Shown in pieces: positions 766 through 62,404 of a DNA stretch of 64,000 nucleotides. Origin of the DNA: a phage; the NCBI GenBank assembly GCA_014685065.1, contig GCA_014685065.1_4092.1; one strand, given 5' to 3'. Each line of letters begins with the position of its first letter. Position 1 is the stretch's first letter. Both the position numbers and the translations under genes were made by a program. The notes under the pieces are model-generated. The model was given only the letters and a program-made list of their open reading frames with translations, was not told the origin of the DNA and did not search any database.

Positions 766-796
766 GAGAACGGAATTTTCCGTTCTCTTCTTTTAT
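766..796 (+). terminator. intrinsic terminator
   Basis: Perfect 8-bp stem GAGAACGG/CCGTTCTC with 6-nt loop followed by TTCTTTTAT. Confidence 0.6.
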
Positions 797-800
797 AAGT

Positions 801-828
801 GGGACAACTTATAAAAATATGATATAAT
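801..828 (+). promoter_or_regulatory. sigma70-type early promoter (GGGACA, 16 nt, TGaTATAAT)
   Basis: -35-like GGGACA 801-806, 16-nt spacer, extended -10 TGATATAAT ending at 828; same architecture recurs at 23342, 46315, 52039. Confidence 0.55.
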
Positions 829-862
829 AGTTAATGTACCAATATACATGGAGAGTATTAAA

Positions 863-1108
863 ATGGAACAAGAAAATAATCAAATTCAACTAACCCTTCT
901 AGACCTAATCAATGCTGCAAAAATCATGGAAGCTGCTGTTGCACGAAACACCTTTAAAGTTGAAGAACTCGTTGAGGTTGCTCCAGTTGTATCTAAATTT
1001 GTTTCTTTTGCAAATGTAGCTCTTGAAGATATTAAAGCACAAGAAGATGCAGCTAAAGAAGAAGCTGAATCACAAGATAGTGAAACTCAAGAAGATAAAG
1101 GAGAATAA
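863..1108 (+). CDS. hypothetical small acidic protein
   Basis: ORF-track frame 848-1108; the ATG at 863 is preferred because GGAGAG sits 7 nt upstream of it, while the ATG at 848 lies inside that RBS. Confidence 0.5.
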   Translation: MEQENNQIQLTLLDLINAAKIMEAAVARNTFKVEELVEVAPVVSKFVSFANVALEDIKAQEDAAKEEAESQDSETQEDKGE

Positions 1109-1110
1109 TT

Positions 1111-1767
1111 ATGGCAGCTATTCGTCATGTTGGTGTAATGCGTAATACAGGTTCTCGTGTTTTTGTTGTTTGGCGTTCACTACCAGATGATCCTGAACAC
1201 TGCCTTATTGTTTATCGTGATTCACTACCAGAAGCATATGTTCACGCAGTAACTGATATTGTTATGGGTCATGGTCAATCTAATATTGATTTGTGGGAAG
1301 TAATGCATAAAATTGGTTATCTCGATGGACGCAAAATGCTAGATGTTCTACACAATATGCAGCATCTACGTCGCGTTCGTACTTGTGACATTGATATGCA
1401 CACTGGTGGTAATAATAAAATTTCTCTTGATGTTCTAAACAAAGCATTAGATGAAAATCAAGCAAAAGTACAAGAAGATGGTAAAGTAAAAGACTTTAAC
1501 CCATTCAATCCACAAGAAGCGGACACTAAAGTAGAAGAAGCTACTATTGTAGAACAACTTCTCACTGATGCACAAAAATATGAAAAACTGGCTAAAGAAC
1601 ATTATGAACGTGCATATAATTTAGAGCCAAGTTTGCGTCCACAAACACAAGTTGTTGAACAACCGAAAGATAGTAAAACAATTTATCTAGAAATTCCAGA
1701 AGGTATTTCACAGACTAAAGCTATTGAGAAAGTAAAACAACTATTTGCAGAACGTAAAGCAAAATAA
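1111..1767 (+). CDS. hypothetical protein
   Basis: 218-aa ORF with AGGAG RBS upstream (aaaggagaataatt ATG); no family recognised. Confidence 0.5.
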   Translation: MAAIRHVGVMRNTGSRVFVVWRSLPDDPEHCLIVYRDSLPEAYVHAVTDIVMGHGQSNIDLWEVMHKIGYLDGRKMLDVLHNMQHLRRVRTCDIDMHTGGNNKISLDVLNKALDENQAKVQEDGKVKDFNPFNPQEADTKVEEATIVEQLLTDAQKYEKLAKEHYERAYNLEPSLRPQTQVVEQPKDSKTIYLEIPEGISQTKAIEKVKQLFAERKAK

Positions 1768-1770
1768 AAT

Positions 1771-2364
1771 ATGAAAAAGAATGAATTAGATGAAGCAATA
1801 AAAGGTTTATCTAATGTATGTTTTAGTGGCGGGGCAGCAGGTGCTGACCGCCTTTTTTCTATCTATGCAAAAAATAATGGATTTGAAGTTATTAATTTTT
1901 CATTCAAAGGTCATGAGCATAGTGTAGATGAAAGTACTATATTAGAAATACCATCCAATATTCTATCTGATATTTCTATATTAAATCAACTAAACATTGC
2001 ATGTTACTCGTTACAGCGAAAAGTACCGAAGCCTGGTTCTTATGTTTACAACTTACTTGCAAGGAATAGTTATCAGATACTTAATACAGAAAGAATATAT
2101 TGTATTGCAAATATCACATCACCAACTAAGGTAAGTGGTGGTACTGCATGGGCAGTACAGATGTATATGGATTCAGTTGAAAATCCTGAAATTTATTGTT
2201 ATGATATGAATTCACGTTCAGTATTTTATTTCGATACAGTACTGAAAGAGTTCACACAAACATTCGTCGTTCCAGCACCACATGGTAACTGGACTGGTAT
2301 TGGTTCACGCAATGCCACCGAAAAACATATGGAACATTTTATTACATTTTTCAAGGAAGAATAA
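1771..2364 (+). CDS. hypothetical protein with glycine-rich Rossmann-like motif (possible SLOG/DprA/LOG-like nucleotide-binding fold)
   Basis: FSGGAAGADRLF glycine-rich motif near the N-terminus and a second SGGTAWAVQ motif; immediately upstream of thymidylate synthase, overlapping its start by 1 nt. Confidence 0.4.
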   Translation: MKKNELDEAIKGLSNVCFSGGAAGADRLFSIYAKNNGFEVINFSFKGHEHSVDESTILEIPSNILSDISILNQLNIACYSLQRKVPKPGSYVYNLLARNSYQILNTERIYCIANITSPTKVSGGTAWAVQMYMDSVENPEIYCYDMNSRSVFYFDTVLKEFTQTFVVPAPHGNWTGIGSRNATEKHMEHFITFFKEE

Positions 2365-3293
2365 TGAAACAACTACAAGAACTATATCAAAAAATTCTAG
2401 ATGAAGGCGTAGAAAGCGTTGACCGTACTGGTGTTGGGACAATCAAACTTATCGGTCAACAAATGCGTTTCGACCTTAACGATGGTTTCCCAGCAGTGAC
2501 GACAAAACGTCTAGCTTGGAAAGCAATGACTTCAGAATTACTATGGTTTATTGAAGGTTCCCATGATGAGCGTCGCCTTTGTGAAATTTTGCATGGAACT
2601 CGTGATACCGAAAAGAAAACAATTTGGACAGATAATTACCTAAATCAAGGCGTTGCTCTTGGTTATACTGGTGGTGAATTGGGTCCAGTGTATGGTAAGC
2701 AATGGCGTGAATGGGAAGATTATAAATTTAGTTCCAGTACTGAAGAAATTCAAGAATTAAAAGATAAAGGATACAAAGTTATCGATTATACTGGTTCACA
2801 TGGTGTTGTTATGAAACGTACAACTGACCAATTACAAGAACTAATCAAAGGTATAAAGTCCGATCCATATGGTCGTCGCCACATTCTAAGTGCATGGAAC
2901 GTTGGTGAGCTTGATGATATGACGTTGCCACCTTGTCATAGCTTTGTGCAATTTTGTGTAGTACAAGGGAAACTAAGCTGCATTCTACATCAAAGATCCG
3001 CTGATCTATTTTTGGGAGTTCCATTTAATATCAGTAGTTATTCACTACTAACTCATATGATTGCACAAATTACTGGTTTAGATGTTGGTGAATTTATTTG
3101 GAATGGTGGTGATTGTCACATTTATAAAAACCACGTTGAACAAGTAAAAGAACAACTACAGCGAAAACCTCGTGAATTACCTGAATTGTGGCTTGATCCT
3201 ACAATTACTAATATTGAAGATTTCACAATGGATTCTTTCAAATTAGTGAATTACAACCCAATGCCTACAATTAAAGCACCGATGGCTGTATAA
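2364..3293 (+). CDS. thyA: thymidylate synthase (ThyA type)
   Basis: Full-length match to ThyA hallmarks: RTGVGT, WFIEGS, active-site PPCHSFVQF, HQRSADLFLGVPFNISSYSLLTHMIAQ. Confidence 0.9.
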   Translation: MKQLQELYQKILDEGVESVDRTGVGTIKLIGQQMRFDLNDGFPAVTTKRLAWKAMTSELLWFIEGSHDERRLCEILHGTRDTEKKTIWTDNYLNQGVALGYTGGELGPVYGKQWREWEDYKFSSSTEEIQELKDKGYKVIDYTGSHGVVMKRTTDQLQELIKGIKSDPYGRRHILSAWNVGELDDMTLPPCHSFVQFCVVQGKLSCILHQRSADLFLGVPFNISSYSLLTHMIAQITGLDVGEFIWNGGDCHIYKNHVEQVKEQLQRKPRELPELWLDPTITNIEDFTMDSFKLVNYNPMPTIKAPMAV

Positions 3294-3300
3294 ACGAAAA

Positions 3301-3327
3301 GGGAGAACTAATGTTCTCCCTTTTTTT
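3301..3327. terminator. bidirectional intrinsic terminator
   Basis: GGGAGAAC-TAAT-GTTCTCCC hairpin followed by TTTTTTT; sits between convergent genes. Confidence 0.7.
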
Positions 3328-3328
3328 A

Positions 3329-5340: not shown

Positions 5341-5371
5341 AAAAGAAAAGGCCAAGCATAGACTTGACCTT
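5341..5371 (-). terminator. intrinsic terminator (minus strand)
   Basis: 9-bp stem with one G-U pair (AAGGCCAAG/CTTGACCTT on plus) with T-run on the minus strand; near-identical copy at 6888-6920. Confidence 0.45.
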
Positions 5372-5380
5372 AATATGTTA

Positions 5381-6871
5381 TTAAACTACAGAAACCCCAC
5401 TCATTGAAGGTGGAACGATTTGCTCAGCAATTAATAATAAATTAGTGACTGTAAACTTGCCACCATGTGACATTAACGTAATAGGTGTTCCATTAGTTAC
5501 TAGGTTACCATTTTCATCAACACTTAAAAATGTATTAAATGAAATAGTATCAACTGTGATTGTTGGTGTTCTAACTTGGTTAATATTATTAAATTGAGTA
5601 TTTGTAAAATTAATAGCAAAACTCATATTAGATGAACTAGTAGTCCATGTACCGTATATATTTAATTTGAAATTTAGAGATGAATTGAAATTATAAACAT
5701 TTAGCTTATTACTTGTTGTATTGAAGAAACTATCTAGTGTTCCACTAGTGGGGGTCAATGATTTAAGTATTTGAATTAAATTCTGTTCAATACCATCTGT
5801 GAATTGTATATTTAAGTTTGAATAATATAATTCTCTTTTTCTACGAACTAGGTTAGTAGTATTATTACCATTAACAAATAATCCAGAACTATCTGATGTT
5901 AATATATTACCAGAGGTATTACTTATTTTAGACGAAATAACATTACTGTCAATAGTTATACCATTTCCAGCAGTATATGAGGATGGTCCAGTCGGTACAT
6001 ATAACCCATTTACGTCAGTTGTTAAAGTATTTCCTGGTGTTGTGCTTATTTTGGTTGAAATTGTTTCTGAACTAATTGATATACCAGTACCACCAACGTA
6101 ATTTATTCTTGTATTAGGCACAAACAATCCAGTACTGTCAGTAGATAGTATATTACCAGAAGTAGAACTAATTTTAGCACTTATTATATCAGAATTAATT
6201 GAAATTCCGTTACCAGCATTATAAGTTACAGTATTGTTAGGAACAAATAAACCATTGCTAGTAGAAGATAATATATTTTCTGGCGTAGGGTCAACCTCAA
6301 CACTAATCACTTCATCACTAATTACAATCCCATTACCCGCATTGTACGTTATCGAATTATCAGGTACGAATAGACCCGTACTATCAGTTGTAAGGATATT
6401 TCCTAAAGATGTGCTTACTTTTGATGATATAATATTATTATCTATTTTAATACTGTCACTACCTGTATATGTTACTGTATTATCAGGTACATATAAACCA
6501 TCTTCGGCAATAGTAAGGATGTTATTAGGTGATGTACTTATTTTAGTTGAGATAGTATTATCACTTATTGTCACACCAGTGCCACCAGAATACACAATTG
6601 ATGTATTAGGAACATATAAACCATTAGAATCATTACTAAGAATATTTCCTTGTGTTGAACTGATTTTTGTTGATATTAAATTAGAGGTTATTGATATACC
6701 AGTACCACCTTGATAGTTAATAGTGTTATCTGGAACATATAAACCATCACTTTCATGAATTAAAATATTTTTATTTTTAGAACTAATATCAGGTACTGGA
6801 ATCTTACCTATTAGAACACCGTCATAACTGATATCACCATTTACAATAATATCTGTTCTTATATTATACAT
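5381..6871 (-). CDS. tail fibre protein with tandem ~30-aa repeats
   Basis: At least 9 tandem repeats of the pattern NILSxDSxGL(F/Y)VPxNxxxYxxGxGIxIxxxxISxKIS. Confidence 0.6.
   Translation of the reverse strand: MYNIRTDIIVNGDISYDGVLIGKIPVPDISSKNKNILIHESDGLYVPDNTINYQGGTGISITSNLISTKISSTQGNILSNDSNGLYVPNTSIVYSGGTGVTISDNTISTKISTSPNNILTIAEDGLYVPDNTVTYTGSDSIKIDNNIISSKVSTSLGNILTTDSTGLFVPDNSITYNAGNGIVISDEVISVEVDPTPENILSSTSNGLFVPNNTVTYNAGNGISINSDIISAKISSTSGNILSTDSTGLFVPNTRINYVGGTGISISSETISTKISTTPGNTLTTDVNGLYVPTGPSSYTAGNGITIDSNVISSKISNTSGNILTSDSSGLFVNGNNTTNLVRRKRELYYSNLNIQFTDGIEQNLIQILKSLTPTSGTLDSFFNTTSNKLNVYNFNSSLNFKLNIYGTWTTSSSNMSFAINFTNTQFNNINQVRTPTITVDTISFNTFLSVDENGNLVTNGTPITLMSHGGKFTVTNLLLIAEQIVPPSMSGVSVV
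5560..6780 (-). repeat. in-frame tandem repeat array (~90 bp unit) inside the fibre gene
   Basis: Periodic protein repeats map to this DNA span; the boundaries are approximate. Confidence 0.5.
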
Positions 6872-23341: not shown

Positions 23342-23369
23342 TAGACAAACCGTAAGAATGTGATATAAT
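23342..23369 (+). promoter_or_regulatory. sigma70-type early promoter (TAGACA, 16 nt, TGaTATAAT)
   Basis: Same architecture as 801-828; lies 40 nt upstream of the ClpA-like start codon. Confidence 0.55.
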
Positions 23370-23409: not shown

Positions 23410-25698
23410 ATGAATCTTACTCAATTGTTCAAAAAAAGCGACGAACTGGCAACATCTCTAGGTCATACATTCTTGACTATTGACCACGTAAGTGCCACAG
23501 TACTGACTATTGATAGCATCAAGAACGTATTTGAAGATATGAACATTGATGCAGACAAACTGCACAACCGCCTGATGAACTATCTTAAAAATACAACAGT
23601 TCCACATGCACCAAAAAGTGTTAAAGATGAAGACGCGAATCGCACTTCACTTCTAGTGAATCGCGTTGTACATGAGCTTTCTAAAAAATCAGTTATTGAA
23701 CAACTAAAAAGTGATGATTTTTCGATTGATGCATATTTTGTTCTATTCGAATGTCTGTCTTTCCCTAACACAGCACTAGAAGCTGCGTTGAAAGAAGAAG
23801 GTGTTAGCTGTACTGAAGCTGCACGTGCATTGCAAAAACACGTTGAGTCACTTGATAAGGGTATCAACTTACAAAGTATTAATGACGAACCGATTGGAGA
23901 TAAAAAAGTGGCCCAACAGCAGCAATCATCTAAACAAAAAGGTTTGGAAGACTATACAACGAATCTAACTGCTCTTGCAAAAGAAGGCAAACTAGATCCT
24001 ATGATTGGTCGCCAGAAAGAATTGTCTGCATTGATTGAGACTCTTGCTCGCAAAACCAAAAAGAATGCTATTCTTACTGGTGAAGCTGGTGTAGGTAAAA
24101 CACAAATCATCGACGGTCTTGCACAAGCTATTGCTGACGGCAACGTACCTGAACACCTGAAAGACGTTGAAATTCTTTCACTAAATGTTGGTGCATTGAC
24201 TGCTGGTACTAAGTATCGTGGTGAGTTTGAAGAACGCATCGACAATTTGCTAAAAGAACTAAAGAAACGTGAAAATACTATTGTTTTCATTGATGAAATT
24301 CATATTATGGTTGGGGCTGGTTCCGCAAGTAATGGTTCTATGGACATGAGCAATATGCTTAAGCCAGCACTTTCACGTGGTGAGATTCGTGTAATTGGTG
24401 CAACAACATATGATGAATATCGTAAAAATATCGAGAAAGATAGTGCATTAACTCGTCGTTTTATGAAAATTGATGTAGTTGAGCCGTCAATTGATGAAAC
24501 TCGTGCAATTGTTAATGGTTTGAAACCAACTTATGAAAAATTCCATAATGTTGAGTTCACAACTGATGCAATGGATGCTGTAATTTCTCTCAGTGATAAA
24601 TTCCTGAAGAATAAGCACTTCCCAGATAAAGCAATTGATCTAATGGACGCTGCTGCTGCAAAAGTTCGTTCACGTGACAACAATAGTAAGCTTATTACTG
24701 CCAATTTGATTCAAGAAGTTGTTGCTGGTATTGCCAATTTGGATATCAACGTGGTTGCATGTACTGAAAGTGATCGTATGCGTAATCTACCAGATGCACT
24801 ACGCTCACGTGTATACGGTCAAGAGGAAGCTATTCAAAAATTAGTTGATAACGTGATGGTAGCTCGTGCAGGACTGCGTGACAAATCTAGTGTTCAGGGT
24901 GCATTTATGTTTGTTGGACCATCTGGTACTGGTAAAACAGAAATTACCAAAGCATTAGCAGATGCAACTGGTGCGGAACTGATTCGCTTTGATATGTCAG
25001 AATTTTCTCAAGAACATACTGTTTCTAAACTAATTGGTTCACCTCCAGGTTATGTTGGTCATGATTCTGGTAACGGTTTACTGTTGGATAAAATTGAGCA
25101 GTTCCCTAATGCAGTACTGTTACTTGATGAAATTGAAAAAGCAGATCGTAAAGTACTACTAACCTTCCTACAGGTTTTGGATGAAGGTCGCCTGACTGGT
25201 TCACAAGGTAAAACTGTATATTTTAATAACGTAACTGTTATTATGACTACAAACCTTGGTGCGGCAGATTCAACGAAGCGTAGCATTGGTATGAGCGGTA
25301 GTGATACTGCACAAGACAAGGCAATTAAAGCATTCTTGCCACCAGAGTTTATTAACCGTATTGATAGTATCGTTACGTTTAAAGACCTAAGCAGTGAAGC
25401 TATTGACAGCATCATTGATAAGTTCATGGGCAGTTTGAATGAACAAGTCAAAGACCGCAATGTTAAAGTTACATTGACAAAAGCTGCACGTGAATGGCTT
25501 GCGAAAAATGGGGTAAAAGTTGGCATGGGTGCACGTCCAATGAAACGTACCATTGAACAAAACATTCGTGTACCACTAGCTAAAGAAATGTTGTGTGGTT
25601 CACTTGTGAATGGTGGTAACATTACATTTGATGTTATTGATGGTAAAATCGGTATTAAACCGAAACGTACCAAAGCTGTAGATAAAGCACTGGCATAA
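23410..25698 (+). CDS. clpA: ClpA-like AAA+ unfoldase (two ATPase domains)
   Basis: Collinear with ClpA: D1 Walker A GEAGVGKT (24079-24102), Walker B FIDEIH; D2 Walker A GPSGTGKT (24916-24939), Walker [13 protein letters not shown]-track start is GTG 23389; ATG 23410 with AGGAG RBS preferred. Confidence 0.85.
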
Positions 25699-25706
25699 AA
25701 AAAGAA

Positions 25707-25735
25707 AAGGAGAGCAATATGCTCTCCTTTTTTAT
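25707..25735. terminator. bidirectional intrinsic terminator
   Basis: AAGGAGAGC-AATAT-GCTCTCCTT hairpin followed by TTTTTTATT; between convergent clpA-like and giant gene. Confidence 0.7.
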
Positions 25736-46268: not shown

Positions 46269-46314
46269 CTTTTTGATTCTCCATAATAAGGGAACATTTG
46301 ATGTATTTATACGT

Positions 46315-46342
46315 GGGACAAAATGCTTTTTGGTGCTATAAT
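46315..46342 (+). promoter_or_regulatory. sigma70-type early promoter (GGGACA, 16 nt, TGcTATAAT)
   Basis: Same architecture as 801-828; followed by perfect palindrome GGTACAA-gga-TTGTACC (46352-46368) and the gp55-like gene. Confidence 0.5.
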
Positions 46343-46399
46343 AACATTGATGGTACAAGGATTGTACCTATTGGATTTAAACATGGAGAGTAAAATACA

Positions 46400-47239
46400 A
46401 TGACAAATAGGCCAAAGCGTAAAAAGTATCTCAATAATGCTGATTTACTTCGTGAAATACAAAAAAGTAAGATTTCATACTGCTGGTTATTAGACAAATC
46501 ATATAGTATGTATGATTATATTGTTTTTCATGAGTCAGAAATTACTGCTGAGTTACTTGAAAAAGCCAAAGCAGCACGAATCAAACGACTAAACAATGAA
46601 ATGCTTGATAGTATTCGTGAAAAGGAAAGTATGAGTGCTAAAAAAGCTAAAGAATATGCAGATGAAAATAATTTAGTTATCACTGATGTTCCAATCGATG
46701 AAGTTGTTATTCGTGTTATCACTGATGAACATATTCCACCCGACACTAGAGTTAACTTTGAACCATTCAAGCATTACATTGTAGATAATGAAGGAATTCT
46801 CTATGAAGTATGTCGTTCTCATTGGAAAGGAGATCTTGAAACTGGTGAATTCAGTACTGTTCATGGTAAAATTACAAATGAACTAGGGAAGATGTTCATT
46901 AAACTTGCTGAGGAAATCTCTCATAAATCTAATTACAGAAACTATACATACTTAGATGAAATGATGGGTGATGCAAGAATACAATTAGTTAAAAACGCAC
47001 TTCTCTTTAAAGAGAGCATTCTTTATAAAAAAGATAAACCAGCAGTTCAGCTAAATCCTTTCTCTTACTATACATCATTCGTAAACAATAGTTTTCGTTC
47101 TATATTGAATAGTGAGAAAAATGTTCGAAATATACGTGATGATTTACTTGAAATGCATGGCTTTACGCCATCACATACACGTCAAATTGAGATTGAATTG
47201 AACATGATTGAAAGGAAAAATGAAGATGGCTCTGTTTGA
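46400..47239 (+). CDS. late-transcription sigma factor, gp55-like
   Basis: N-terminal KKYLNNADLLREIQ resembles T4 gp55 (recalled from memory) with further collinear segments; sits next to gp47/gp46 as in T4. Confidence 0.55.
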   Translation: MTNRPKRKKYLNNADLLREIQKSKISYCWLLDKSYSMYDYIVFHESEITAELLEKAKAARIKRLNNEMLDSIREKESMSAKKAKEYADENNLVITDVPIDEVVIRVITDEHIPPDTRVNFEPFKHYIVDNEGILYEVCRSHWKGDLETGEFSTVHGKITNELGKMFIKLAEEISHKSNYRNYTYLDEMMGDARIQLVKNALLFKESILYKKDKPAVQLNPFSYYTSFVNNSFRSILNSEKNVRNIRDDLLEMHGFTPSHTRQIEIELNMIERKNEDGSV

Positions 47240-48257
47240 TAAAGCAATTACATTCACTGATATTCACTTAGGTTTAAAGAATAACAGCAAGCAACACAAT
47301 GAAGATTGTTTAAACTTCATTAAATTCATGATTGATGTAGCTAAAAAAAATAATATCAAAGTTTGTGTTTTTATGGGAGATTATTTTCATAATAGAAGTA
47401 ATATCAATATTCAAACACTAAACTATGGTTTACAAATTCTTCAATTATTAAATGATAATTTTGAAAAAGTATATTTTTTAGTAGGCAACCATGATATGTA
47501 TCATAAAAACAAACGTGATATAACAAGTATCAATATGGCTCAAGTTTATGAAAATATAGAATTCATTAATGAAATTACAACATTTGATGATTGTACTTTC
47601 ATTCCATTTATGATTGAAGATGAATATAAGTTGTTACCTCAACTAAAAAGTAAGTATGTTTTTGGTCACTTAGAGTTACCAGGTTACTTGCTTAACAAAA
47701 TGGTAGAAATGCCTGATCATGGAAAAGAAACAGAAGGTTCTTTTGGTGGTTGTGAGTATGTTTTTAGTGGACATTTTCATAAAAGGCAGTCAAAAACAAC
47801 TTCAAAAGGAACTCGTGTAGTTTATACTGGTAATTGTTTTCCACATAATTTTTCCGATACATGGGATGATGCAAGAGGTGTGATGATTCTTGAACATGGA
47901 AAAGAACCTATTTTCAAGTCATGGGATAATGCACCAAAATATAGAACATTCACACTTTCTGAATTGTTGACTGATCCAAGCTATTATCTACAAGATAACA
48001 CAATATCAAAAGTTCAAGTTGATATATCAATAACAACTGATGAGATTAGTTTTATTCGTGATACATTTACTAAACTTTATAACATTAGGGAGTTTAATGT
48101 TGTAACTAGCAAGCAAAGTATTTCAGAATTAATCGAAGATGGTGTTAGTTTTGAAAGTACTGAATCAGTTGATGAGATAGTTTTACAGCAAATTATGGAA
48201 ATTGATTCACCAATGTTTGATAAAAATCTTCTAATCCAAATTTACAGATCGTTATAA
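47220..48257 (+). CDS. recombination nuclease subunit, SbcD/Mre11-like (T4 gp47-like)
   Basis: Calcineurin-like phosphoesterase motifs: GDYFH, GNHDM, GHLE, GHFH. ORF-track start 47208; ATG 47220 with AAAGGA RBS preferred. Confidence 0.8.
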   Translation: MKMALFDKAITFTDIHLGLKNNSKQHNEDCLNFIKFMIDVAKKNNIKVCVFMGDYFHNRSNINIQTLNYGLQILQLLNDNFEKVYFLVGNHDMYHKNKRDITSINMAQVYENIEFINEITTFDDCTFIPFMIEDEYKLLPQLKSKYVFGHLELPGYLLNKMVEMPDHGKETEGSFGGCEYVFSGHFHKRQSKTTSKGTRVVYTGNCFPHNFSDTWDDARGVMILEHGKEPIFKSWDNAPKYRTFTLSELLTDPSYYLQDNTISKVQVDISITTDEISFIRDTFTKLYNIREFNVVTSKQSISELIEDGVSFESTESVDEIVLQQIMEIDSPMFDKNLLIQIYRSL

Positions 48258-48265
48258 GGGACTAT

Positions 48266-50413
48266 ATGCTAAACATTACACGTATATCTATGAGGAACTT
48301 CTTTTCATTTGGTAATGCACCACAATCAATTGATTTGAATGGTTCCGACATTTCATTAGTACTGGGTCAAAATAATGATGCAGTTATTGAAGGTGGTGAC
48401 AGTACCGGACGTCGAAATGGTGTAGGGAAAAGTGCTATTATTCAAGGATTAGTTTTTGGATTATTTGGTAAAAGTATTGGTAATGATATTAAAATTCCGA
48501 ACCTAGTCAATAAAACTAATGGCAAAAATTGTGAAGTAGTTGTAGAGTTTGAAAAAGATGGTGTACAATATCTGGTTGAACGTGGGAGAAGTCCCACGTA
48601 TTTCAATTTTGTTACTTTAGGGAAAGATAATAAAATTGAAGATGAATCAAGGGGAGAAAAGAAAGACACACAAGAAGATTTGAATGAAATTCTTGGTATA
48701 TCTCAATTATTATTTGAACATATTGTAGTACTGAATGCTAACGTTGAACCTTTCTTAGCTTTATCCACACAAAAACAACGTGATATGATAGAAGAACTTC
48801 TTGGAATAACACAGTTGACGGAAAAAGCTGAAATGCTAAAGGAGATGTATAAGGATACTAAACGTTTAGCCGAACAAGAAAAGTTCAAAAATGAAACTGT
48901 AGCTGCAAGTAATGAACGTATTCAAAAAAGTATTGAGGCACTACAAGAACAGGCAAACCAGTTTGAAATTGATAAAAATAATAGAGTATCTAAGTTAAAT
49001 GAAGAGTTGAATATATATAAAACTTTAGACTTTAATGACCTCTATGAAGCTGCGGACATAAAAGAGAAAGCTCTTATTCATAACGCAAAGCGTGGTGAAA
49101 TCGAACGCCGTGTACAAGAGTTGGCTTTAAAATTTGATGCATATGACCGTGAACTTGAAAGATCTAAAAGAGCATTAAATCTAAGCATTGATAAGCTAAA
49201 AACTATTGATATTAGTGCAGAATTGGAAAATCATAATGAGTTGGAGATATGGAAACAGTTAGAGGGTATTCTAAAAGAGAATAATAACCAAAAACGTTTC
49301 AAAGAACAAAAACTAAACTCACTAAAAATAGCTTTAAAAGGATATGAATGTTCAATTAATGCTGAAATTGACAAATTATCAACAGTTGAAAACAGCAAAT
49401 GTCCACTTTGTATGTCTGAATTGGAACATAACGAACATACTTCTTCAATTAAAGACAAAATCCAAAGTACTATTAATGATCTTCAAGCTAAAATTGATAG
49501 TTCTTCTTCTGAAATTGAAACATTACTTCAAGAAATTGATAGTATTGAGATTTTTGATATGCCACCTAAGCCTGTGACATATTATAATACACTTTCAGAA
49601 GCACAAATGCATGAACATAAGCTTCAAGAATTGGTCAGAAAGAGTGAAGAAGAACAAATAAACATCTATGCAAATGAACTTATGTCATCATATGATGAAC
49701 TTAACTCATATGAACTAATGGAAGTTCCAGATACATTAAACAAATATGAAGTTAAAGAGTTAGAAATGACTGTAAATTCATTATCACAGCAATTAGATCG
49801 TGAATTGAAGACTACTAACACATTTATTAGCCAAATTAATACCCTGAAGACTGATTCTTTAGTACCAATTGATTATAGCGACTATAATAATCTTGATAAA
49901 ATGTCAAATCACCAAGATTTCTTGGTTAAATTACTTTTAAACAAGGATTCTTATGTCCGTAAACGTATTATTGAGCAAAATATATCATATTTGAATACAC
50001 GACTTCAGTACTATATCGATATGTGCGGTTCTGAGCATAATGTTGTGTTTTTGAATGATTTGAGTGTTGAAATTGAGAAGAGTGGACAGTACTTTGACTA
50101 TAAACAGCTTAGTAGAGGTGAGCGTACAAGGGTAAACATCGCATTATCTTGTGCTTTCCGTGATACATATGAGTCATTATACCAAAGTATTAATATTCTT
50201 ATCATTGATGAGATGATTGACCAAGGTCTTGACTCAAGTGGTGTTCTACGTGTGTGGTCTATCTTCCAAGATATGGCTGCTGTACGTGGTAAGAACGTTT
50301 ATGCTATTTCCCACAGAGAAGAGTTACTATCTAAGACTGAAAAAATCCTCAAAGTTGTTAAAGAGGACGGTTTCAGTACTGTTGAATATGCAACCCTTGA
50401 TGATGTTTTCTAA
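48266..50413 (+). CDS. recombination ATPase subunit, SbcC/Rad50-like (T4 gp46-like)
   Basis: N-terminal Walker A NGVGKSAIIQGLVFGLFGKS, long central coiled-coil, C-terminal Walker B ILIIDEMIDQGLD. Confidence 0.8.
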   Translation: MLNITRISMRNFFSFGNAPQSIDLNGSDISLVLGQNNDAVIEGGDSTGRRNGVGKSAIIQGLVFGLFGKSIGNDIKIPNLVNKTNGKNCEVVVEFEKDGVQYLVERGRSPTYFNFVTLGKDNKIEDESRGEKKDTQEDLNEILGISQLLFEHIVVLNANVEPFLALSTQKQRDMIEELLGITQLTEKAEMLKEMYKDTKRLAEQEKFKNETVAASNERIQKSIEALQEQANQFEIDKNNRVSKLNEELNIYKTLDFNDLYEAADIKEKALIHNAKRGEIERRVQELALKFDAYDRELERSKRALNLSIDKLKTIDISAELENHNELEIWKQLEGILKENNNQKRFKEQKLNSLKIALKGYECSINAEIDKLSTVENSKCPLCMSELEHNEHTSSIKDKIQSTINDLQAKIDSSSSEIETLLQEIDSIEIFDMPPKPVTYYNTLSEAQMHEHKLQELVRKSEEEQINIYANELMSSYDELNSYELMEVPDTLNKYEVKELEMTVNSLSQQLDRELKTTNTFISQINTLKTDSLVPIDYSDYNNLDKMSNHQDFLVKLLLNKDSYVRKRIIEQNISYLNTRLQYYIDMCGSEHNVVFLNDLSVEIEKSGQYFDYKQLSRGERTRVNIALSCAFRDTYESLYQSINILIIDEMIDQGLDSSGVLRVWSIFQDMAAVRGKNVYAISHREELLSKTEKILKVVKEDGFSTVEYATLDDVF

Positions 50414-50983: not shown

Positions 50984-51931
50984 ATGGCTAAAATGACACA
51001 ACAACAATTTATAGATAAATCAATTAATCTACATGGTAGTATTTACACCTACAATAACACCGTGTATGTTAATGCACATCAACCAGTGTCTATTACATGT
51101 AAAATTCATGGTGACTTTACGGTAGTTCCTAATAAACATATTTCCGCAAAGCAAGGTTGTCCGGTTTGTTCTGATATTGCAAAGAAAGAACGTAAATCTA
51201 AAAAGTCACTGGAGTCATTCTTTACTGAAGCAAAAGAAGTACACGGTGATAAGTATGATTACTCTAAAGTGTTTTTCAACATTCGTTCAGAGAAAATTAC
51301 TATCATATGCAAAGAAGAAGGTCATGGTGAATTTAATCAGGTAGTTAGTAATCACCTAGCTGGACAGGGTTGCCCTGAATGCTCCAAAGCACTTATTGGT
51401 TTAAAGAAAAGAACACCAGAAGATGTATTCTTTGAAGATTGTAAGTACATTCATATGGATGCATACGACTACTCCAATACAAAATATAATGGTATGTATG
51501 AAACAATTACACCAGTATGCAAACGTCATGGAGAATTCACAGTACTGGCAACTAAACATTATCATAGAAAGCAAGGTTGTCCGGTTTGTTCTGACATGGA
51601 ACTAAAGTCAAGACCAGTTATTGAAATTCAGAATTTTTTAAAAGAGTATGATATAATATTTGAAATGGAAAAGAAGTTTGATGGTTGTAAAAATATAAAC
51701 CATTTACCATTTGATTTTTATATTCCTTCACTGAATCTTCTAATAGAGTATGATGGTATTCAACACTTCAAACCAATAGAGTACTTTGGTGGTAAACAAG
51801 CTTTAGCTGAACAGCAAAGAAATGATGAAATAAAAAATCAATTCTGTTTTAATAACAACATTACTCTTCTTAGAATAAAGTATTTCGAAGATCATATTAA
51901 AATCATCAAAGACTATATATCAAAACTTTAA
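50984..51931 (+). CDS. free-standing nuclease: three Cys/His repeat units plus C-terminal DUF559/Vsr-like PD-(D/E)XK domain (putative homing endonuclease)
   Basis: Three ~45-aa repeats (YxYS...C..HGxF......H....QGCPxCS) then LPFDFYIPSLNLLIEYDGIQHF...LLRIKYFE. ORF-track start is GTG 50969; ATG 50984 with GAGGT RBS preferred. Confidence 0.55.
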   Translation: MAKMTQQQFIDKSINLHGSIYTYNNTVYVNAHQPVSITCKIHGDFTVVPNKHISAKQGCPVCSDIAKKERKSKKSLESFFTEAKEVHGDKYDYSKVFFNIRSEKITIICKEEGHGEFNQVVSNHLAGQGCPECSKALIGLKKRTPEDVFFEDCKYIHMDAYDYSNTKYNGMYETITPVCKRHGEFTVLATKHYHRKQGCPVCSDMELKSRPVIEIQNFLKEYDIIFEMEKKFDGCKNINHLPFDFYIPSLNLLIEYDGIQHFKPIEYFGGKQALAEQQRNDEIKNQFCFNNNITLLRIKYFEDHIKIIKDYISKL

Positions 51932-51954
51932 AATATGATATAGTTTTTTTAGAA

Positions 51955-51986
51955 CCAAGTAATAAAAATGTTACTTGGGTTTTTTA
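51955..51986 (+). terminator. intrinsic terminator
   Basis: 8-bp stem CCAAGTAA/TTACTTGG with 8-nt loop followed by GTTTTTT. Confidence 0.6.
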
Positions 51987-52038
51987 TATGTGTAAAAGTT
52001 GGAACTAAGTACTTAATGAATATTTTTATAAAAATAGT

Positions 52039-52066
52039 GAGACAACTTTAAAGTTTGTGCTATAAT
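52039..52066 (+). promoter_or_regulatory. sigma70-type early promoter (GAGACA, 16 nt, TGcTATAAT) with no protein gene downstream
   Basis: Same architecture as the promoters at 801, 23342 and 46315. Confidence 0.5.
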
Positions 52067-52072
52067 GTTTGT

Positions 52073-52526
52073 TGTAGTAATGACAATCCTGTTGAATGCA
52101 GAAATGCATATAAATTAGAACCTGATCCTATCGAAAATGTAGATGGCAGATGAGCAGTTCAACAGTGCGATGAGCAAAAGAAACCCGTTAGATGTGGGCA
52201 TAGTTTGAACCCCTCACGGCAATGCGGCTCAATAAAGAACTCCGATAAGCATACAGAGAGTTCCTCGATAGACATATAAGGATCGCACCTTACCAGATTT
52301 GCTAAGGGAGTTTATTAAGTGATTTTAATAAACAGCCTGAAGTTTGATTGTATAGACTTTCAGGTGAGTGTCAGGATGATTAAGACTGACGACCGTTGCA
52401 CATGACTGCGATAGAGAGAAACAGAGCAACCCGCTTTCGTTCTTAATATATTTTTAAGAAATTCGCAATACAATAAATGCTGAAACCATCAGCGTCAAGA
52501 AATAGAGACTTCATTGTCTCTTTTTT
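52073..52526 (+). ncRNA. candidate structured noncoding RNA (~450 nt), identity unknown
   Basis: Bounded by the promoter above and an intrinsic terminator (stem 52504-52521 plus T-run); no ORF of 60 aa or more; GC-rich hairpins. Confidence 0.3.
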
Positions 52527-52740
52527 ATTGTCTTCATTCCCCTGCGGGGGGATGAAAATGTCCTCAACAAATCCCGTCAAGTATTAAATCTTTTAAAGTT
52601 CTTTATAATTAATTTAATTAAATGAATATGAGTTACGTAGTAACGAATATTCTTCAGCTAACGAATGAAATGAGTTAGATGAATCCAATAATATTAAAAT
52701 TAATCCTTTCATAATTCAATTCAAATAATTCTGTAGTTTA

Positions 52741-52771
52741 AAACCAAAAAAAACCAGCAACAATGTGCTGG
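52741..52771 (-). terminator. intrinsic terminator (minus strand)
   Basis: CCAGCA-6 nt-TGCTGG hairpin; minus strand reads hairpin then TTTTTTTTGG. Confidence 0.6.
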
Positions 52772-52782
52772 CTATATGAAAA

Positions 52783-62333: not shown

Positions 62334-62404
62334 TAAAAAACCCTTTACACAATGTTCTGGAATGTATATAATACGCACATACACGAAAATAAAGAGACAA
62401 AATT

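What the first reader, a model, noticed from the sequence alone, without database searches (positions are those of the whole stretch)
801..828. Recurring early promoter class (nnGACA, 16 nt, TGnTATAAT) driving diverse genes
Four near-identical promoter architectures occur at 801-828 (small-gene/thyA operon), 23342-23369 (clpA-like), 46315-46342 (gp55-like late sigma factor) and 52039-52066 (ORF-free locus). All have a GACA-ending -35-like hexamer, an exactly 16-nt spacer and an extended -10. Two of the 5' leaders share ACATGGAGAGTA around the RBS (853-864 and 46385-46396). This looks like the phage's host-polymerase-dependent early regulon.
Basis: seen in the sequence. Interest (0 to 1): 0.45.

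Follow-up and report, generated by a model that had tools for sequence, protein, structure and literature searches.

The report
Second promoter class of a jumbo phage
The four look-alike sites are real promoters of a distinct, conserved class in a giant E. coli phage. They are probably not its first-wave "early" promoters but a second wave that switches on replication genes, the late sigma factor and an undescribed large structured RNA.

Summary
GACA-N13-TGNTATAAT occurs 4 times in the window against 0.03 expected. All four hits lie in the 4.3% of the window that is intergenic and point at downstream genes.

The window is a Rak2/121Q-type jumbo coliphage. In the near-identical complete 121Q genome the same motif occurs 19 times, 17 of them intergenic.

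The class is discrete. A separate TTGACA-16-(AGTACTG)TATAAT class without TGn clusters before tiny genes and the phage's own RpoD-like sigma gene (Fisher p = 1e-7).

Orthologous promoters keep the architecture across genera. Their -35-like element changes in concert by clade: GGGACA in Asteriusvirus and the Munch clade, GGAACG in CBB, GAP32 and BF. TTGACA promoters persist in every clade.

This class matches the "divergent RpoD-like" promoters predicted for GAP32 and CBB. I therefore read it as a middle-type regulon, probably read by the phage sigma. Timing and reader are inferred, and direct use by host sigma70 is not excluded.

The "ORF-free locus" is a roughly 530-nt structured RNA. It has 4 paralogs per genome and 58 covarying base pairs, gives no Rfam hit, and also occurs in Serratia integrative elements.

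The parts
801..828 (+). Class-B promoter 1: GGGACA (801-806), 16-nt spacer, TGA (820-822), TATAAT (823-828). Expected start about 834-836.
   Evidence: Identical to 121Q 277199-277226.
766..794 (+). Terminator-like hairpin plus T-run just upstream of promoter 1. It insulates the unit from the preceding gene.
   Evidence: Read from the sequence (gagaacgg-aatttt-ccgttctc ttctttt).
863..3293 (+). Operon driven by promoter 1: 81-aa protein (863-1108), 218-aa protein (1111-1767), DprA/SLOG-like protein (1771-2364) and thymidylate synthase (2364-3293). A hairpin terminator follows at 3294-3328.
   Evidence: The 121Q annotation starts gene 565 at the position equal to window 863.
846..857 (+). ACATGGAGAGTA ribosome-binding-site 12-mer in the leader of the first gene.
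23342..23369 (+). Class-B promoter 2: TAGACA, 16-nt spacer, TGA-TATAAT.
23410..25698 (+). ClpA/ClpB-like double AAA+ ATPase driven by promoter 2. A terminator follows at 25699-25734.
   Evidence: Pfam AAA_2 2e-49, ClpB_D2-small and Clp_N..
46315..46342 (+). Class-B promoter 3: GGGACA, 16-nt spacer, TGC-TATAAT. It lies back to back with a late TATAAATA promoter on the - strand (46304-46311).
   Evidence: Phylogenetic footprint.
46352..46368 (+). Conserved hairpin in the 5' leader of the late-sigma mRNA: GGTACA-AGGAT-TGTACC, with a GGA in the loop.
   Evidence: 90% of cells paired against 32-48% when slid, and 3 of 6 pairs have compensatory changes. Alignment.
46381..46392 (+). Second copy of the ACATGGAGAGTA ribosome-binding-site 12-mer.
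46400..50413 (+). Operon driven by promoter 3: gp55-like late sigma (46400-47239), gp47/Mre11-like protein (47220-48257) and gp46/Rad50-like protein (48266-50413).
   Evidence: PHROG 12791 at 2.7e-154. Pfam Metallophos and Rad50_zn_hook. 121Q annotation.
52039..52066 (+). Class-B promoter 4: GAGACA, 16-nt spacer, TGC-TATAAT. It drives the RNA gene.
52074..52596 (+). Gene for a roughly 520-nt structured non-coding RNA. It is one of four paralogs per genome. The 5' end is inferred from the promoter and the 3' end from the limit of conservation.
   Evidence: No ORF of 46 aa or more lies in the locus. Paralogs. Covariation over 95 pairs in 19 helices. Helix coordinates. No Rfam family.
52505..52528 (+). 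Terminator-like hairpin (GAGAC-TTCATT-GTCTC) plus U-run inside the RNA. It lies upstream of the 3' strand of the long-range closing helices.
   Evidence: Helix 18. Present in 15 of 18 aligned homologs, and all 5 pairs covary.
62344..62372 (+). The only other sigma70-like promoter candidate in intergenic DNA of the window: TTTACA-17-TATAAT. It is not a member of the class and is listed for contrast.

Best explanation
The four sites belong to a discrete, genome-wide promoter class of Rak2-type jumbo phages. I call it class B.

Architecture: a T-G-R-R-A-C-R element (here GGGACA, GAGACA or TAGACA) ends exactly 16 bp upstream of a perfect TATAAT that is preceded by TG. Transcription is by the host core RNA polymerase.

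Class B is not the canonical early class. That role fits a separate set, class A: TTGACA-16-(AGTACTG)TATAAT promoters in front of tiny genes and of the phage's own RpoD-like sigma gene.

The most likely logic is a sigma cascade:
1. Host sigma70 fires the TTGACA promoters.
2. These make the phage RpoD-like sigma, which has regions 2, 3 and 4.
3. That sigma reads TGn-TATAAT through regions 2 and 3 and the GGGACA element through region 4. This turns on replication and nucleotide-metabolism genes, Clp-type proteins, tRNAs, four structured RNAs and the gp55-like late sigma.
4. gp55 then fires the TATAAATA late promoters.

Shown: the class exists, is discrete, is conserved at orthologous positions, and has clade-specific consensus changes.
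For: Enrichment and placement:
- 4 hits against 0.03 expected in the window.
- 19 exact hits in 121Q, all on the + strand. 17 lie outside ORFs although only about 10% of the genome is intergenic.

Discreteness:
- Among intergenic nnGACA-N15-17-TATAAT sites: non-TT with TGn 17, non-TT without TGn 2, TT with TGn 2, TT without TGn 21. Fisher p = 1.2e-7.
- The TTGACA class clusters at 92-154 kb in 121Q and sits upstream of the sigma operon.

Targets:
- Primase, exonuclease, helicase, a tRNA cluster, ClpP-like, nudix, ATPase, the thyA operon, ClpA-like, the gp55-like sigma and the RNA paralogs.

Phylogenetic footprint:
- TGRRAC and TGNTATA(A/C)T are invariant, while the 13-nt spacer varies freely at fixed length.

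Concerted clade-specific change:
- Asteriusvirus: (G/T)(G/A)GACA-16-TG(A/C)TATAAT.
- Munch clade: GGGACA-16/17-TGATATAAT.
- Mimasvirus and Eneladusvirus: G(G/A)AAC(G/A)-16-TGGTATAAT.
- TTGACA promoters persist near the sigma genes of all clades.
- All hosts are Enterobacterales. From general knowledge I assume their sigma70 DNA-contact regions are the same. A consensus that moves at many promoters at once then argues for a phage-encoded reader.

The candidate reader:
- The phage sigma has Pfam regions 2, 3 and 4. It matches solved SigA/RpoD/RpoS at 1e-25 to 1e-30 and is present in all these phages.
- By elimination it needs a promoter class. Class A must fire before the sigma exists, and the late class belongs to gp55.
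- The Munch sigma is overall closer to CBB and BF (45%) than to 121Q (38%). Yet it shares with 121Q the residues at one region-3 position and three positions of the C-terminal helix, in step with the shared GGGACA/TGA consensus.

Literature:
- The CBB paper describes the same three-class layout, with a gp55-like gene behind a divergent promoter.
Against: - No transcription start sites or time-course data exist for any Asteriusvirus in the searchable literature.
- A perfect extended -10 with 4 of 6 matches at -35 is expected to work with host sigma70 alone (general knowledge). Early activity is therefore plausible.
- The same promoter type (GAAACA-16-TGCTATACT) precedes copies of the RNA in Serratia chromosomes, inside integrative elements. 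No phage sigma is seen in the 8 kb held for each.
- The sigma-residue correlation rests on two or three clades. The register against sigma70 R584, E585 and R588 is ambiguous because of an insertion.
- Rak2's own gp55 promoter lacks the motif.
- Some class-B promoters precede genes annotated as structural.
Confidence: 0.5

Rival explanations
1. One reading: the sites are host sigma70-dependent promoters that fire immediately on infection. They rely on the extended -10 because the -35 is weak. The GACA is simply the remnant of TTGACA.
For: - TGnTATAAT is the textbook sigma70 extended -10, and GACA matches 4 of 6 positions of TTGACA.
- Several members have A/T-rich UP-like stretches (aaaaatagt) upstream, as the TTGACA class does.
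- RNA copies in Serratia chromosomes carry the same promoter type apparently without a phage sigma.
- No AsiA homolog was detected that would shut sigma70 off (a weak test).
Against: - The class is sharply separate from the TTGACA class, with almost no intermediates.
- The first two positions are conserved as non-T, and T-G-R-R-A-C is invariant in footprints. A dispensable -35 should drift instead.
- The consensus changes in concert between clades whose hosts share sigma70.
- The class is absent from the small-gene cluster and precedes replication genes and the late sigma.
- This view leaves the phage RpoD-like sigma without a promoter class.
Confidence: 0.3
2. Sigma appropriation or an activator: host sigma70 reads the -10, while a phage DNA-binding protein (like T4 MotA with AsiA) binds the TGRRACR element.
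For: - The functional analogy with T4 middle promoters: a good -10, a non-canonical upstream box at fixed distance, and replication genes as targets.
- A phage-encoded reader is required by the clade-specific consensus.
- CBB has an HTH regulator two genes upstream of its sigma gene.
Against: - The element sits in the -35 slot with sigma-like 16-17 bp spacing, not at -30.
- There is no MotA box. Only site 3 has aaaTGCTTt, and at the wrong distance, as read.
- No AsiA-like hit was found (best E 0.055).
- A complete sigma with region 4 is available and is the more economical explanation.
Confidence: 0.1
3. The similarity reflects copied DNA: a mobile or duplicated promoter cassette, rather than independent selection on a shared reader.
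For: Some class-A promoters in 121Q are near-identical over 36 nt, as cassettes would be (142462, 145492 and 149132).
Against: Among the class-B sites only the two boxes are shared. The spacers and flanks are unrelated. Orthologs keep the boxes while the spacers diverge.
Confidence: 0.03
4. These are chance matches in AT-rich intergenic DNA and have no function.
For: The genome is AT-rich (34.7% G+C), so TATAAT-like strings are common.
Against: - 4 hits against 0.03 expected in the window.
- 19 hits in 121Q against about 0.2 expected from base composition (my arithmetic).
- All hits are correctly oriented, and orthologs are conserved across genera.
Confidence: 0.02

Closest known systems
'Divergent RpoD-like' promoters predicted in Cronobacter phage GAP32 and Pectobacterium phage CBB (Abbasifar 2014; Buttimer 2017, PMC5259590)
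   Same: - Canonical -10 with a non-canonical -35.
- About 18 copies per genome, placed before DNA-synthesis genes and the gp55-like sigma gene.
- I show they are orthologous position by position, before the gp55-like gene and before the RNA locus, with the same 16-bp spacing and TGn.
   Different: - The -35-like hexamer here is GGGACA/GAGACA rather than (T)G(G/A)AACG.
- The base between TG and TATAAT is A or C here, not G.
- Those papers did not note the extended -10, the fixed spacing or the RNA genes, and did not assign a reader.
E. coli sigma70 extended -10 promoters (TGnTATAAT, e.g. galP1)
   Same: TG located one base upstream of a consensus -10 hexamer, and use of host core polymerase.
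   Different: In the classical cases the -35 is dispensable and not conserved. Here a specific non-TTG element is conserved at fixed spacing and co-varies by phage clade.
T4 middle promoters (MotA box plus sigma70 -10, with AsiA)
   Same: The likely role: a second temporal class that drives replication and nucleotide-metabolism genes in a T4-related phage with gp55-type late transcription.
   Different: There is no MotA box at -30 and no detectable AsiA. The phage carries a full RpoD-like sigma instead.
Phage-encoded sigma cascades (Bacillus phage SPO1 gp28 and gp33/34; phiEco32 gp36)
   Same: A phage sigma made from early genes redirects host core polymerase to a phage-specific promoter class.
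   Different: Those sigmas recognise very different -10 and -35 boxes. Here the -10 stays sigma70-like and only the -35 differs. No experimental link has been made.
Large phage-associated structured RNAs (ROOL, GOLLD, HEARO) and the RNA-seq-defined lncRNAs of jumbo phage PA5oct. These are comparators for the RNA at 52074-52596.
   Same: Several hundred nucleotides long, many helices, phage-borne and of unknown function.
   Different: There is no match to any Rfam 15 model and no sequence similarity to the PA5oct ncRNAs. The RNA is present in four paralogs per genome.

Membership tests
Sigma70-family extended -10 promoter | Consensus -10 hexamer TATAAT | tested here: met
   All four sites have a perfect TATAAT.
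Sigma70-family extended -10 promoter | TG located one base upstream of the -10 hexamer | tested here: met
   All 4 of 4 sites in the window, and 17 of 19 intergenic non-TT members in 121Q.
Sigma70-family extended -10 promoter | Intergenic position, oriented towards a downstream gene | tested here: met
   4 of 4 in the window and 17 of 19 in 121Q.
Sigma70-family extended -10 promoter | Transcription start 6-8 nt downstream of the -10 | not testable with these tools
   No 5'-end data were found for this phage group.
Canonical host-sigma70 early promoter class of this phage | -35 hexamer TTGACA | tested here: not met
   None of the 4 sites has TTG. Orthologs are never TTGACA. A separate TTGACA class exists.
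Canonical host-sigma70 early promoter class of this phage | Located in the cluster of small host-takeover genes | tested here: not met
   Class-B sites are dispersed. The TTGACA class clusters at 92-154 kb of 121Q.
Canonical host-sigma70 early promoter class of this phage | Active in the first minutes without phage protein synthesis | not testable with these tools
   This needs a time-course RNA experiment.
GAP32/CBB 'divergent RpoD-like' promoter class | Classic -10 with a non-TTGACA -35 (TGAAACG-like) | tested here: met
   The orthologous promoters read GGGACA here and GGAACG/GAAACG in CBB, GAP32 and BF, in the same slot. Paper description.
GAP32/CBB 'divergent RpoD-like' promoter class | Precedes the gp55-like late sigma gene and DNA-synthesis genes | tested here: met
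   Site 3 precedes the gp55-like gene. 121Q members precede primase, helicase and exonuclease genes.
T4-type middle promoter (MotA-dependent) | MotA box (a/t)(a/t)(a/t)TGCTT(t/c)A centred at -30 | tested here: not met
   Absent from three sites. Site 3 has aaaTGCTTt only 7 nt from the -10.
T4-type middle promoter (MotA-dependent) | Phage encodes AsiA and MotA | tested here: inconclusive
MotA was not tested.
Regulon of the phage RpoD-like sigma (proposed here) | Phage sigma with regions 2, 3 and 4, encoded behind early-type promoters | tested here: met
   Pfam r2, r3 and r4. PDB profile matches. TTGACA promoters lie upstream of its operon.
Regulon of the phage RpoD-like sigma (proposed here) | Promoter consensus co-varies with the sigma across clades | tested here: inconclusive
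   The consensus does change by clade, and four candidate contact residues track it. However, only two or three independent clades are available and the helix register is ambiguous.
Regulon of the phage RpoD-like sigma (proposed here) | Specific initiation by core polymerase plus phage sigma | not testable with these tools
   This needs in vitro transcription.
Structured non-coding RNA (for 52074-52596) | Conserved secondary structure supported by compensatory changes | tested here: met
   96.9% of cells are paired against 38-46% when slid. 58 of 95 pairs have double changes. 0 of 500 shuffles reached the observed values.
Structured non-coding RNA (for 52074-52596) | Membership of a described RNA family | tested here: not met
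   No Rfam 15 hit at gathering score, and only chance-level hits at E up to 10.

The most novel reading that the evidence does not exclude
Class B is the regulon of the RpoD-like sigma that all 'group 2' jumbo phages carry and whose promoters are unknown. Its region 4 would read a GGGAC/GGAAC-type -35 that co-evolves with it, while the -10 stays sigma70-like. One output of this regulon would be a previously undescribed family of roughly 530-nt, 19-helix RNAs. These RNAs are kept in four paralogs per phage genome, one of them next to the sigma gene itself. They have also been captured, together with their promoter, by integrative elements in Serratia chromosomes.
Probability: 0.4. Interest if true: 0.75.

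Novelty: new member of a known kind. Interest (0 to 1): 0.55.

Why it matters
Rak2-type jumbo phages have no RNA polymerase of their own but carry two sigma factors. What the RpoD-like one reads has not been shown.

This analysis gives a concrete candidate promoter class with a clade-specific -35. That makes swap experiments possible, for example 121Q sigma against CBB sigma on GGGACA and GGAACG templates. It also places the late sigma gene downstream of this class, which would complete a three-step cascade.

The analysis corrects the tempting annotation of every TATAAT promoter as 'early'.

It also shows that the 'empty' 0.85-kb gaps in these genomes, which public records either leave blank or fill with tiny ORFs, encode a large and strongly covarying RNA of unknown function.

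Tried and rejected
- Rfam at gathering and at permissive thresholds, on the window, the locus and the Serratia copy: nothing credible.
- tRNA and tmRNA search of the window: none.
- Homology of the RNA to the four RNA-seq-defined ncRNAs of the related jumbo phage PA5oct: none by blastn or nhmmer. Its expression data cannot be borrowed.
- The search for related loci with the phage sigma returned only the phage itself. I used tblastn against the phage records instead.
- Mapping the phage sigma recognition helix onto E. coli sigma70 R584, E585 and R588. My manual alignment used the sigma70 C-terminus from memory and disagrees with the HMMER alignment to a solved SigA, because of an insertion. I therefore make no residue-to-base claims.
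- AsiA search with a remembered T4 sequence: no significant hit.
- MotA-box reading of site 3: rejected on spacing.
- Group I intron idea for the RNA. The lead was a shared CGAUAGACA with the T4 td intron (from memory) and a P7-like long-range helix. There is no Rfam Intron_gpI signal and the RNA interrupts no gene, so this stays a lead only.
- 'Short' 3'-half RNA variants in metagenomes. Some are cut by contig ends. The others are more distant relatives in the same baseplate-hub synteny.
- A search for promoter annotation in the G17 and UE-S1 records: none. UE-S1 only marks a 'repeat_region' inside the RNA.

Full report
**What the window is.** The first 8 kb match Escherichia jumbo phages PBECO4, 121Q, Sharanji and G17 (genus Asteriusvirus, the Rak2-like group) at 95-97% identity. 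The ORF-free locus is 100% identical to 121Q. G+C is 34.7%. My simple ORF map gives 43 genes and 4.3% intergenic DNA. I used the complete, annotated 121Q genome (348,532 bp) as a stand-in for the whole genome. The four promoter sequences are identical in it.

**Checking the observation.**
- GACA-N13-TGNTATAAT gives 4 hits, all on the + strand, against 0.03 expected from shuffles. One mismatch adds none.
- All four are intergenic and face a + strand unit.
- The units are an 81-aa gene through thyA, a ClpA/B-like ATPase, a gp55-like late sigma followed by gp47- and gp46-like genes, and an ORF-free stretch.
- The shared 12-mer ACATGGAGAGTA is real and unique to these two leaders, even in the whole 121Q genome. 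It lies at 846-857 and 46381-46392, a few bases from the stated coordinates.
- The shorter ACATGGAG is a general ribosome-binding-site context.

In 121Q the exact motif occurs 19 times, always on the + strand. 17 hits lie outside ORFs, although only about 10% of the genome is intergenic by my ORF map. Base composition predicts roughly 0.2 hits (my arithmetic). Relaxing the -35 slot shows about 30 intergenic TGNTATAAT sites whose hexamer at 16-bp spacing is GGGACA (9), GAGACA (4), TGGACA (3), or variants such as GGAACA, GGGAAA, GGGATA and GAGACG.

**There are two sigma70-like classes, not one.** I took all intergenic nnGACA-N15-17-TATAAT sites in 121Q.
- 17 have a non-TT start and TGn.
- 21 have TTGACA and no TGn.
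- Only 2 and 2 fall in the mixed cells. Fisher p = 1.2e-7.
- The TTGACA class usually reads TTGACA-N10-AGTACTG-TATAAT. It clusters at 92-154 kb in front of very small genes, many with their own promoter. It also lies upstream of the operon that holds the phage's RpoD-like sigma factor.
- In the window no intergenic TTGACA promoter occurs. The only other sigma70-like site is TTTACA-17-TATAAT at 62344-62372.
- All five TATAAATA octamers (T4 late type) in the window are intergenic and precede structural genes.
- The window therefore shows class B and late promoters, and the genome shows a three-class layout.

**What class B drives.** From the 121Q annotation the targets are:
- a structural-protein gene followed by the RecA, UvsW-like helicase block
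- primase and the gp41-like helicase
- exonuclease
- a helicase
- a tRNA cluster (the promoter at 73453 lies 10 nt before tRNA-Ser)
- a ClpP-like protease
- nudix hydrolase
- an ATPase
- the thyA operon
- a ClpA-like ATPase
- the gp55-like sigma
- four ORF-free loci

. This is a replication, metabolism and late-regulator set. It is not the host-takeover set of tiny ORFs.

**Relatives.** Orthologous promoters keep the architecture but not the hexamer.
- Before the gp55-like gene:
  - GGGACA-16-TGCTATAAT in the window and other Asteriusvirus. JNE01 has GGAACA and EJP2 has GAGACA.
  - GGGACA-16-TGATATAAT in the Munch clade.
  - GGAACG or GAAACG-16-TGGTATAAT in CBB, GAP32, BF, fHe-Yen9-04 and metagenomic relatives.
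  - GAAACA-16-TGCTATACT in one more distant contig.

- The alignment is a textbook footprint. T-G-R-R-A-C and TG-N-TATA(A/C)T are invariant, and the 13 bases between them vary freely at constant length.
- The same holds before the RNA locus.
- In every promoter I could collect per clade, the clade's own consensus is used. TTGACA promoters persist next to the sigma genes of CBB, BF and a Hallingskeid-like genome.
- The CBB paper reports exactly this layout for CBB and GAP32:
  - 18 RpoD-like promoters in the small-gene region that holds the sigma gene
  - 18 'divergent RpoD-like' promoters with -35 TGAAACG before DNA-synthesis genes and the gp55-like gene
  - ATAAATA late promoters

I found no description of it for Asteriusvirus and no experimental mapping in this phage group.

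**Who reads it.**
- The phage has no annotated RNA polymerase, so host core polymerase is certain.
- 121Q gene 167 is a sigma70-family protein with regions 2, 3 and 4. It matches solved SigA, RpoD and RpoS chains at 1e-25 to 1e-30. It is present in every Rak2-like phage but diverges fast, at 35-46% identity between genera.
- Reviews state only that such sigmas 'likely' direct host polymerase to phage promoters.
- Three arguments point to class B as its regulon:
  1. By elimination. The TTGACA class must fire before the sigma exists, and the late class belongs to gp55.
  2. The -35-like element is conserved as something other than TTGACA. A promoter that merely leaned on its extended -10 would not keep such an element.
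- A weak fourth point concerns the Munch sigma.
  - It is closer overall to CBB and BF than to 121Q.
  - Yet it shares with 121Q a tyrosine at the position aligned to sigma70 H455, and R-S-H in the C-terminal helix. CBB and BF have H and K-T-S there.
  - This tracks the promoter consensus rather than phylogeny.
  - The register of that helix against sigma70 is ambiguous, so I make no base-contact claims.

**What argues the other way.**
- A perfect TGnTATAAT with GACA should be usable by sigma70 holoenzyme (general knowledge), so early activity is not excluded. The two readers are not mutually exclusive.
- Copies of the RNA gene in bacterial chromosomes carry the same promoter type (see below).
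- Rak2's own gp55 promoter lacks the motif.
- I found no AsiA-like protein that would switch sigma70 off, though the test was weak.
- I therefore give the cascade 0.5, direct sigma70 use 0.3 and an activator model 0.1.

**The ORF-free locus.**
- The longest ORF in 51932-52782 is 45 aa.
- The stretch from the promoter to about 52596 has three paralogs in 121Q, at 90.3, 192.8 and 247.5 kb. Each lies in an ORF-free gap and each follows a class-B promoter: GGGATG, GAGACA or GGGACA-16-TGATATAAT.
- One paralog starts right after the terminator of the RpoD-like sigma gene. Rak2 keeps that arrangement.
- Every Rak2-like locus downstream of the gp46 and endonuclease VII genes has a copy, except Rak2's own (L029).
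- An 18-sequence alignment at 64-74% identity gives a consensus of 95 pairs in 19 helices, and 58 pairs show compensatory double changes.
- 96.9% of cells pair, against 38-46% when partners are slid by 1-3 columns. The covariation score is 0.50 against at most 0.09. No shuffle out of 500 reaches the observed values.
- Frequent G-U pairs fit the + strand, as does the promoter.
- Two long-range helices tie GAC (52271-52273) and GGGA (52306-52309) to TCCC-GTC (52572-52578). These vary on one side only, so they are not proven by covariation.
- A covarying hairpin plus U-run at 52505-52528 lies inside this closure and is present in 15 of 18 sequences. Whether it terminates is unexplained.
- No Rfam 15 family matches. 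Literature searches found no description. Public records leave the locus blank or call tiny ORFs, and one record marks a repeat_region.

**Distribution of the RNA.**
- An invariant 25-nt motif finds 33 places in viral contigs, all in Rak2-like jumbo phages and up to 4 per genome.
- It finds 43 places in metagenome contigs, where full-length copies again follow clade-appropriate class-B promoters.
- It finds three bacterial records.
- The bacterial copies are full length, with nhmmer E-values from 1e-58 to 1e-71. They sit at the edge of integrative elements:
  - next to a large serine recombinase and two ParB/RepB proteins beside rof and tilS, in the Serratia fonticola GTA-SR07 chromosome
  - next to a serine recombinase beside arsC and dapE, in Serratia sp. 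2723
  - next to a CI-type repressor beside thiM and thiD, in an Enterobacteriaceae MAG

- Their promoters are GAAACA-16-TGCTATACT or GAAACA-16-TCCTATACT.

**Verdict.** The 'early, sigma70' label is probably wrong. As a promoter class it is a new member of a kind already predicted in sister genera. The added value is fourfold: the evidence that it is a separate, co-evolving class; a testable candidate regulon for the jumbo-phage RpoD-like sigma; its position upstream of the late sigma; and the large RNA family it drives.

Noticed in passing
window 52074-52596; paralogs at 121Q 90284-90800, 192765-193339 and 247461-248069: A family of roughly 520-600-nt structured RNAs with four paralogs per genome. 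58 of 95 predicted pairs covary. It is absent from Rfam 15 and from annotations, and is conserved across all Rak2-like genera.
   Followed up: yes
L041 3675-4154 (- strand; Serratia fonticola GTA-SR07 chromosome NZ_CP183218.1); L040 5398-5920; L039 6450-7037: Full-length copies of the same RNA, with the same promoter type, lie in bacterial chromosomes. They sit at the edge of integrative elements (large serine recombinase, ParB/RepB pair, CI-like repressor). It is unclear whether they were captured from jumbo phages, are used against them, or are parasitic on them.
   Followed up: partly
window 52505-52528: A covarying hairpin followed by a U-run looks like an intrinsic terminator. It lies inside the RNA, upstream of the 3' strand of its closing helices. 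It is missing in 3 of 18 homologs. Possible readings are two isoforms or conditional termination.
   Followed up: partly
window 46352-46368: The leader of the gp55-like late-sigma mRNA has a conserved, covarying hairpin with A(A/C)GGAU(C/U) in the loop. In this phage GUACAAGGAUUGU resembles the CsrA high-affinity consensus RUACARGGAUGU (from memory). With the GGAG ribosome-binding site 25 nt downstream, this suggests translational control of the late sigma.
   Followed up: partly
window 46304-46342: A late TATAAATA promoter (- strand, for the structural genes) and the class-B promoter (+ strand, for the late sigma) sit back to back with only 3 bp between them. Both are invariant in all relatives aligned.
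   Followed up: partly
window 50984-51931: A roughly 1-kb insertion relative to 121Q lies between the endonuclease VII gene and the RNA promoter. It encodes a 315-aa protein with treble-clef/zinc-ribbon repeats (DUF723, DUF4379) and a DUF2726 endonuclease-like end, so it is likely a free-standing homing endonuclease. It is also present in phages ECO103 4-12-1 and EC22.5-2 and in Munch.
   Followed up: partly
121Q 92615-153564 (loci L003-L005), e.g. 142462, 145492, 149132: The canonical TTGACA class carries a conserved palindromic AGTACT immediately before (G)TATAAT, and some copies are identical over about 36 nt. This could be an operator for shut-off of early transcription, or a recombination cassette like the promoter-stem-loop repeats of T4-type phages.
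   Followed up: no
121Q 109281-109308, 110563-110590 and 112731-112758; Serratia phage BF locus L038 about 5362-5389: A repeated module, GGGTTGACTTCGGTCAGCCCTTTT-TGCTATAAT. A terminator hairpin holds a TTGACT in its stem and is fused to an extended -10. It is conserved between distant genera.
   Followed up: no
window 62344-62372: TTTACA-17-TATAAT sits just after a terminator downstream of the major capsid gene and before a 365-aa gene. It is the only sigma70-like site in the window's intergenic DNA outside the class.
   Followed up: no
L079 1577-1734 (phage UE-S1, ON568341.1): The depositors annotated a 158-nt 'repeat_region' that is the conserved 5' domain of the RNA. Other records place up to five tiny 'hypothetical protein' ORFs over the locus.
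   Followed up: partly
L035 795-2019 (phage CBB) and L038 1136-1723 (phage BF): Further ORF-free gaps lie upstream of the sigma genes of CBB and BF. They begin with TTGACA-16-TG(C/A)TATACT promoters and do not match the RNA family, so they may encode other non-coding RNAs.
   Followed up: no
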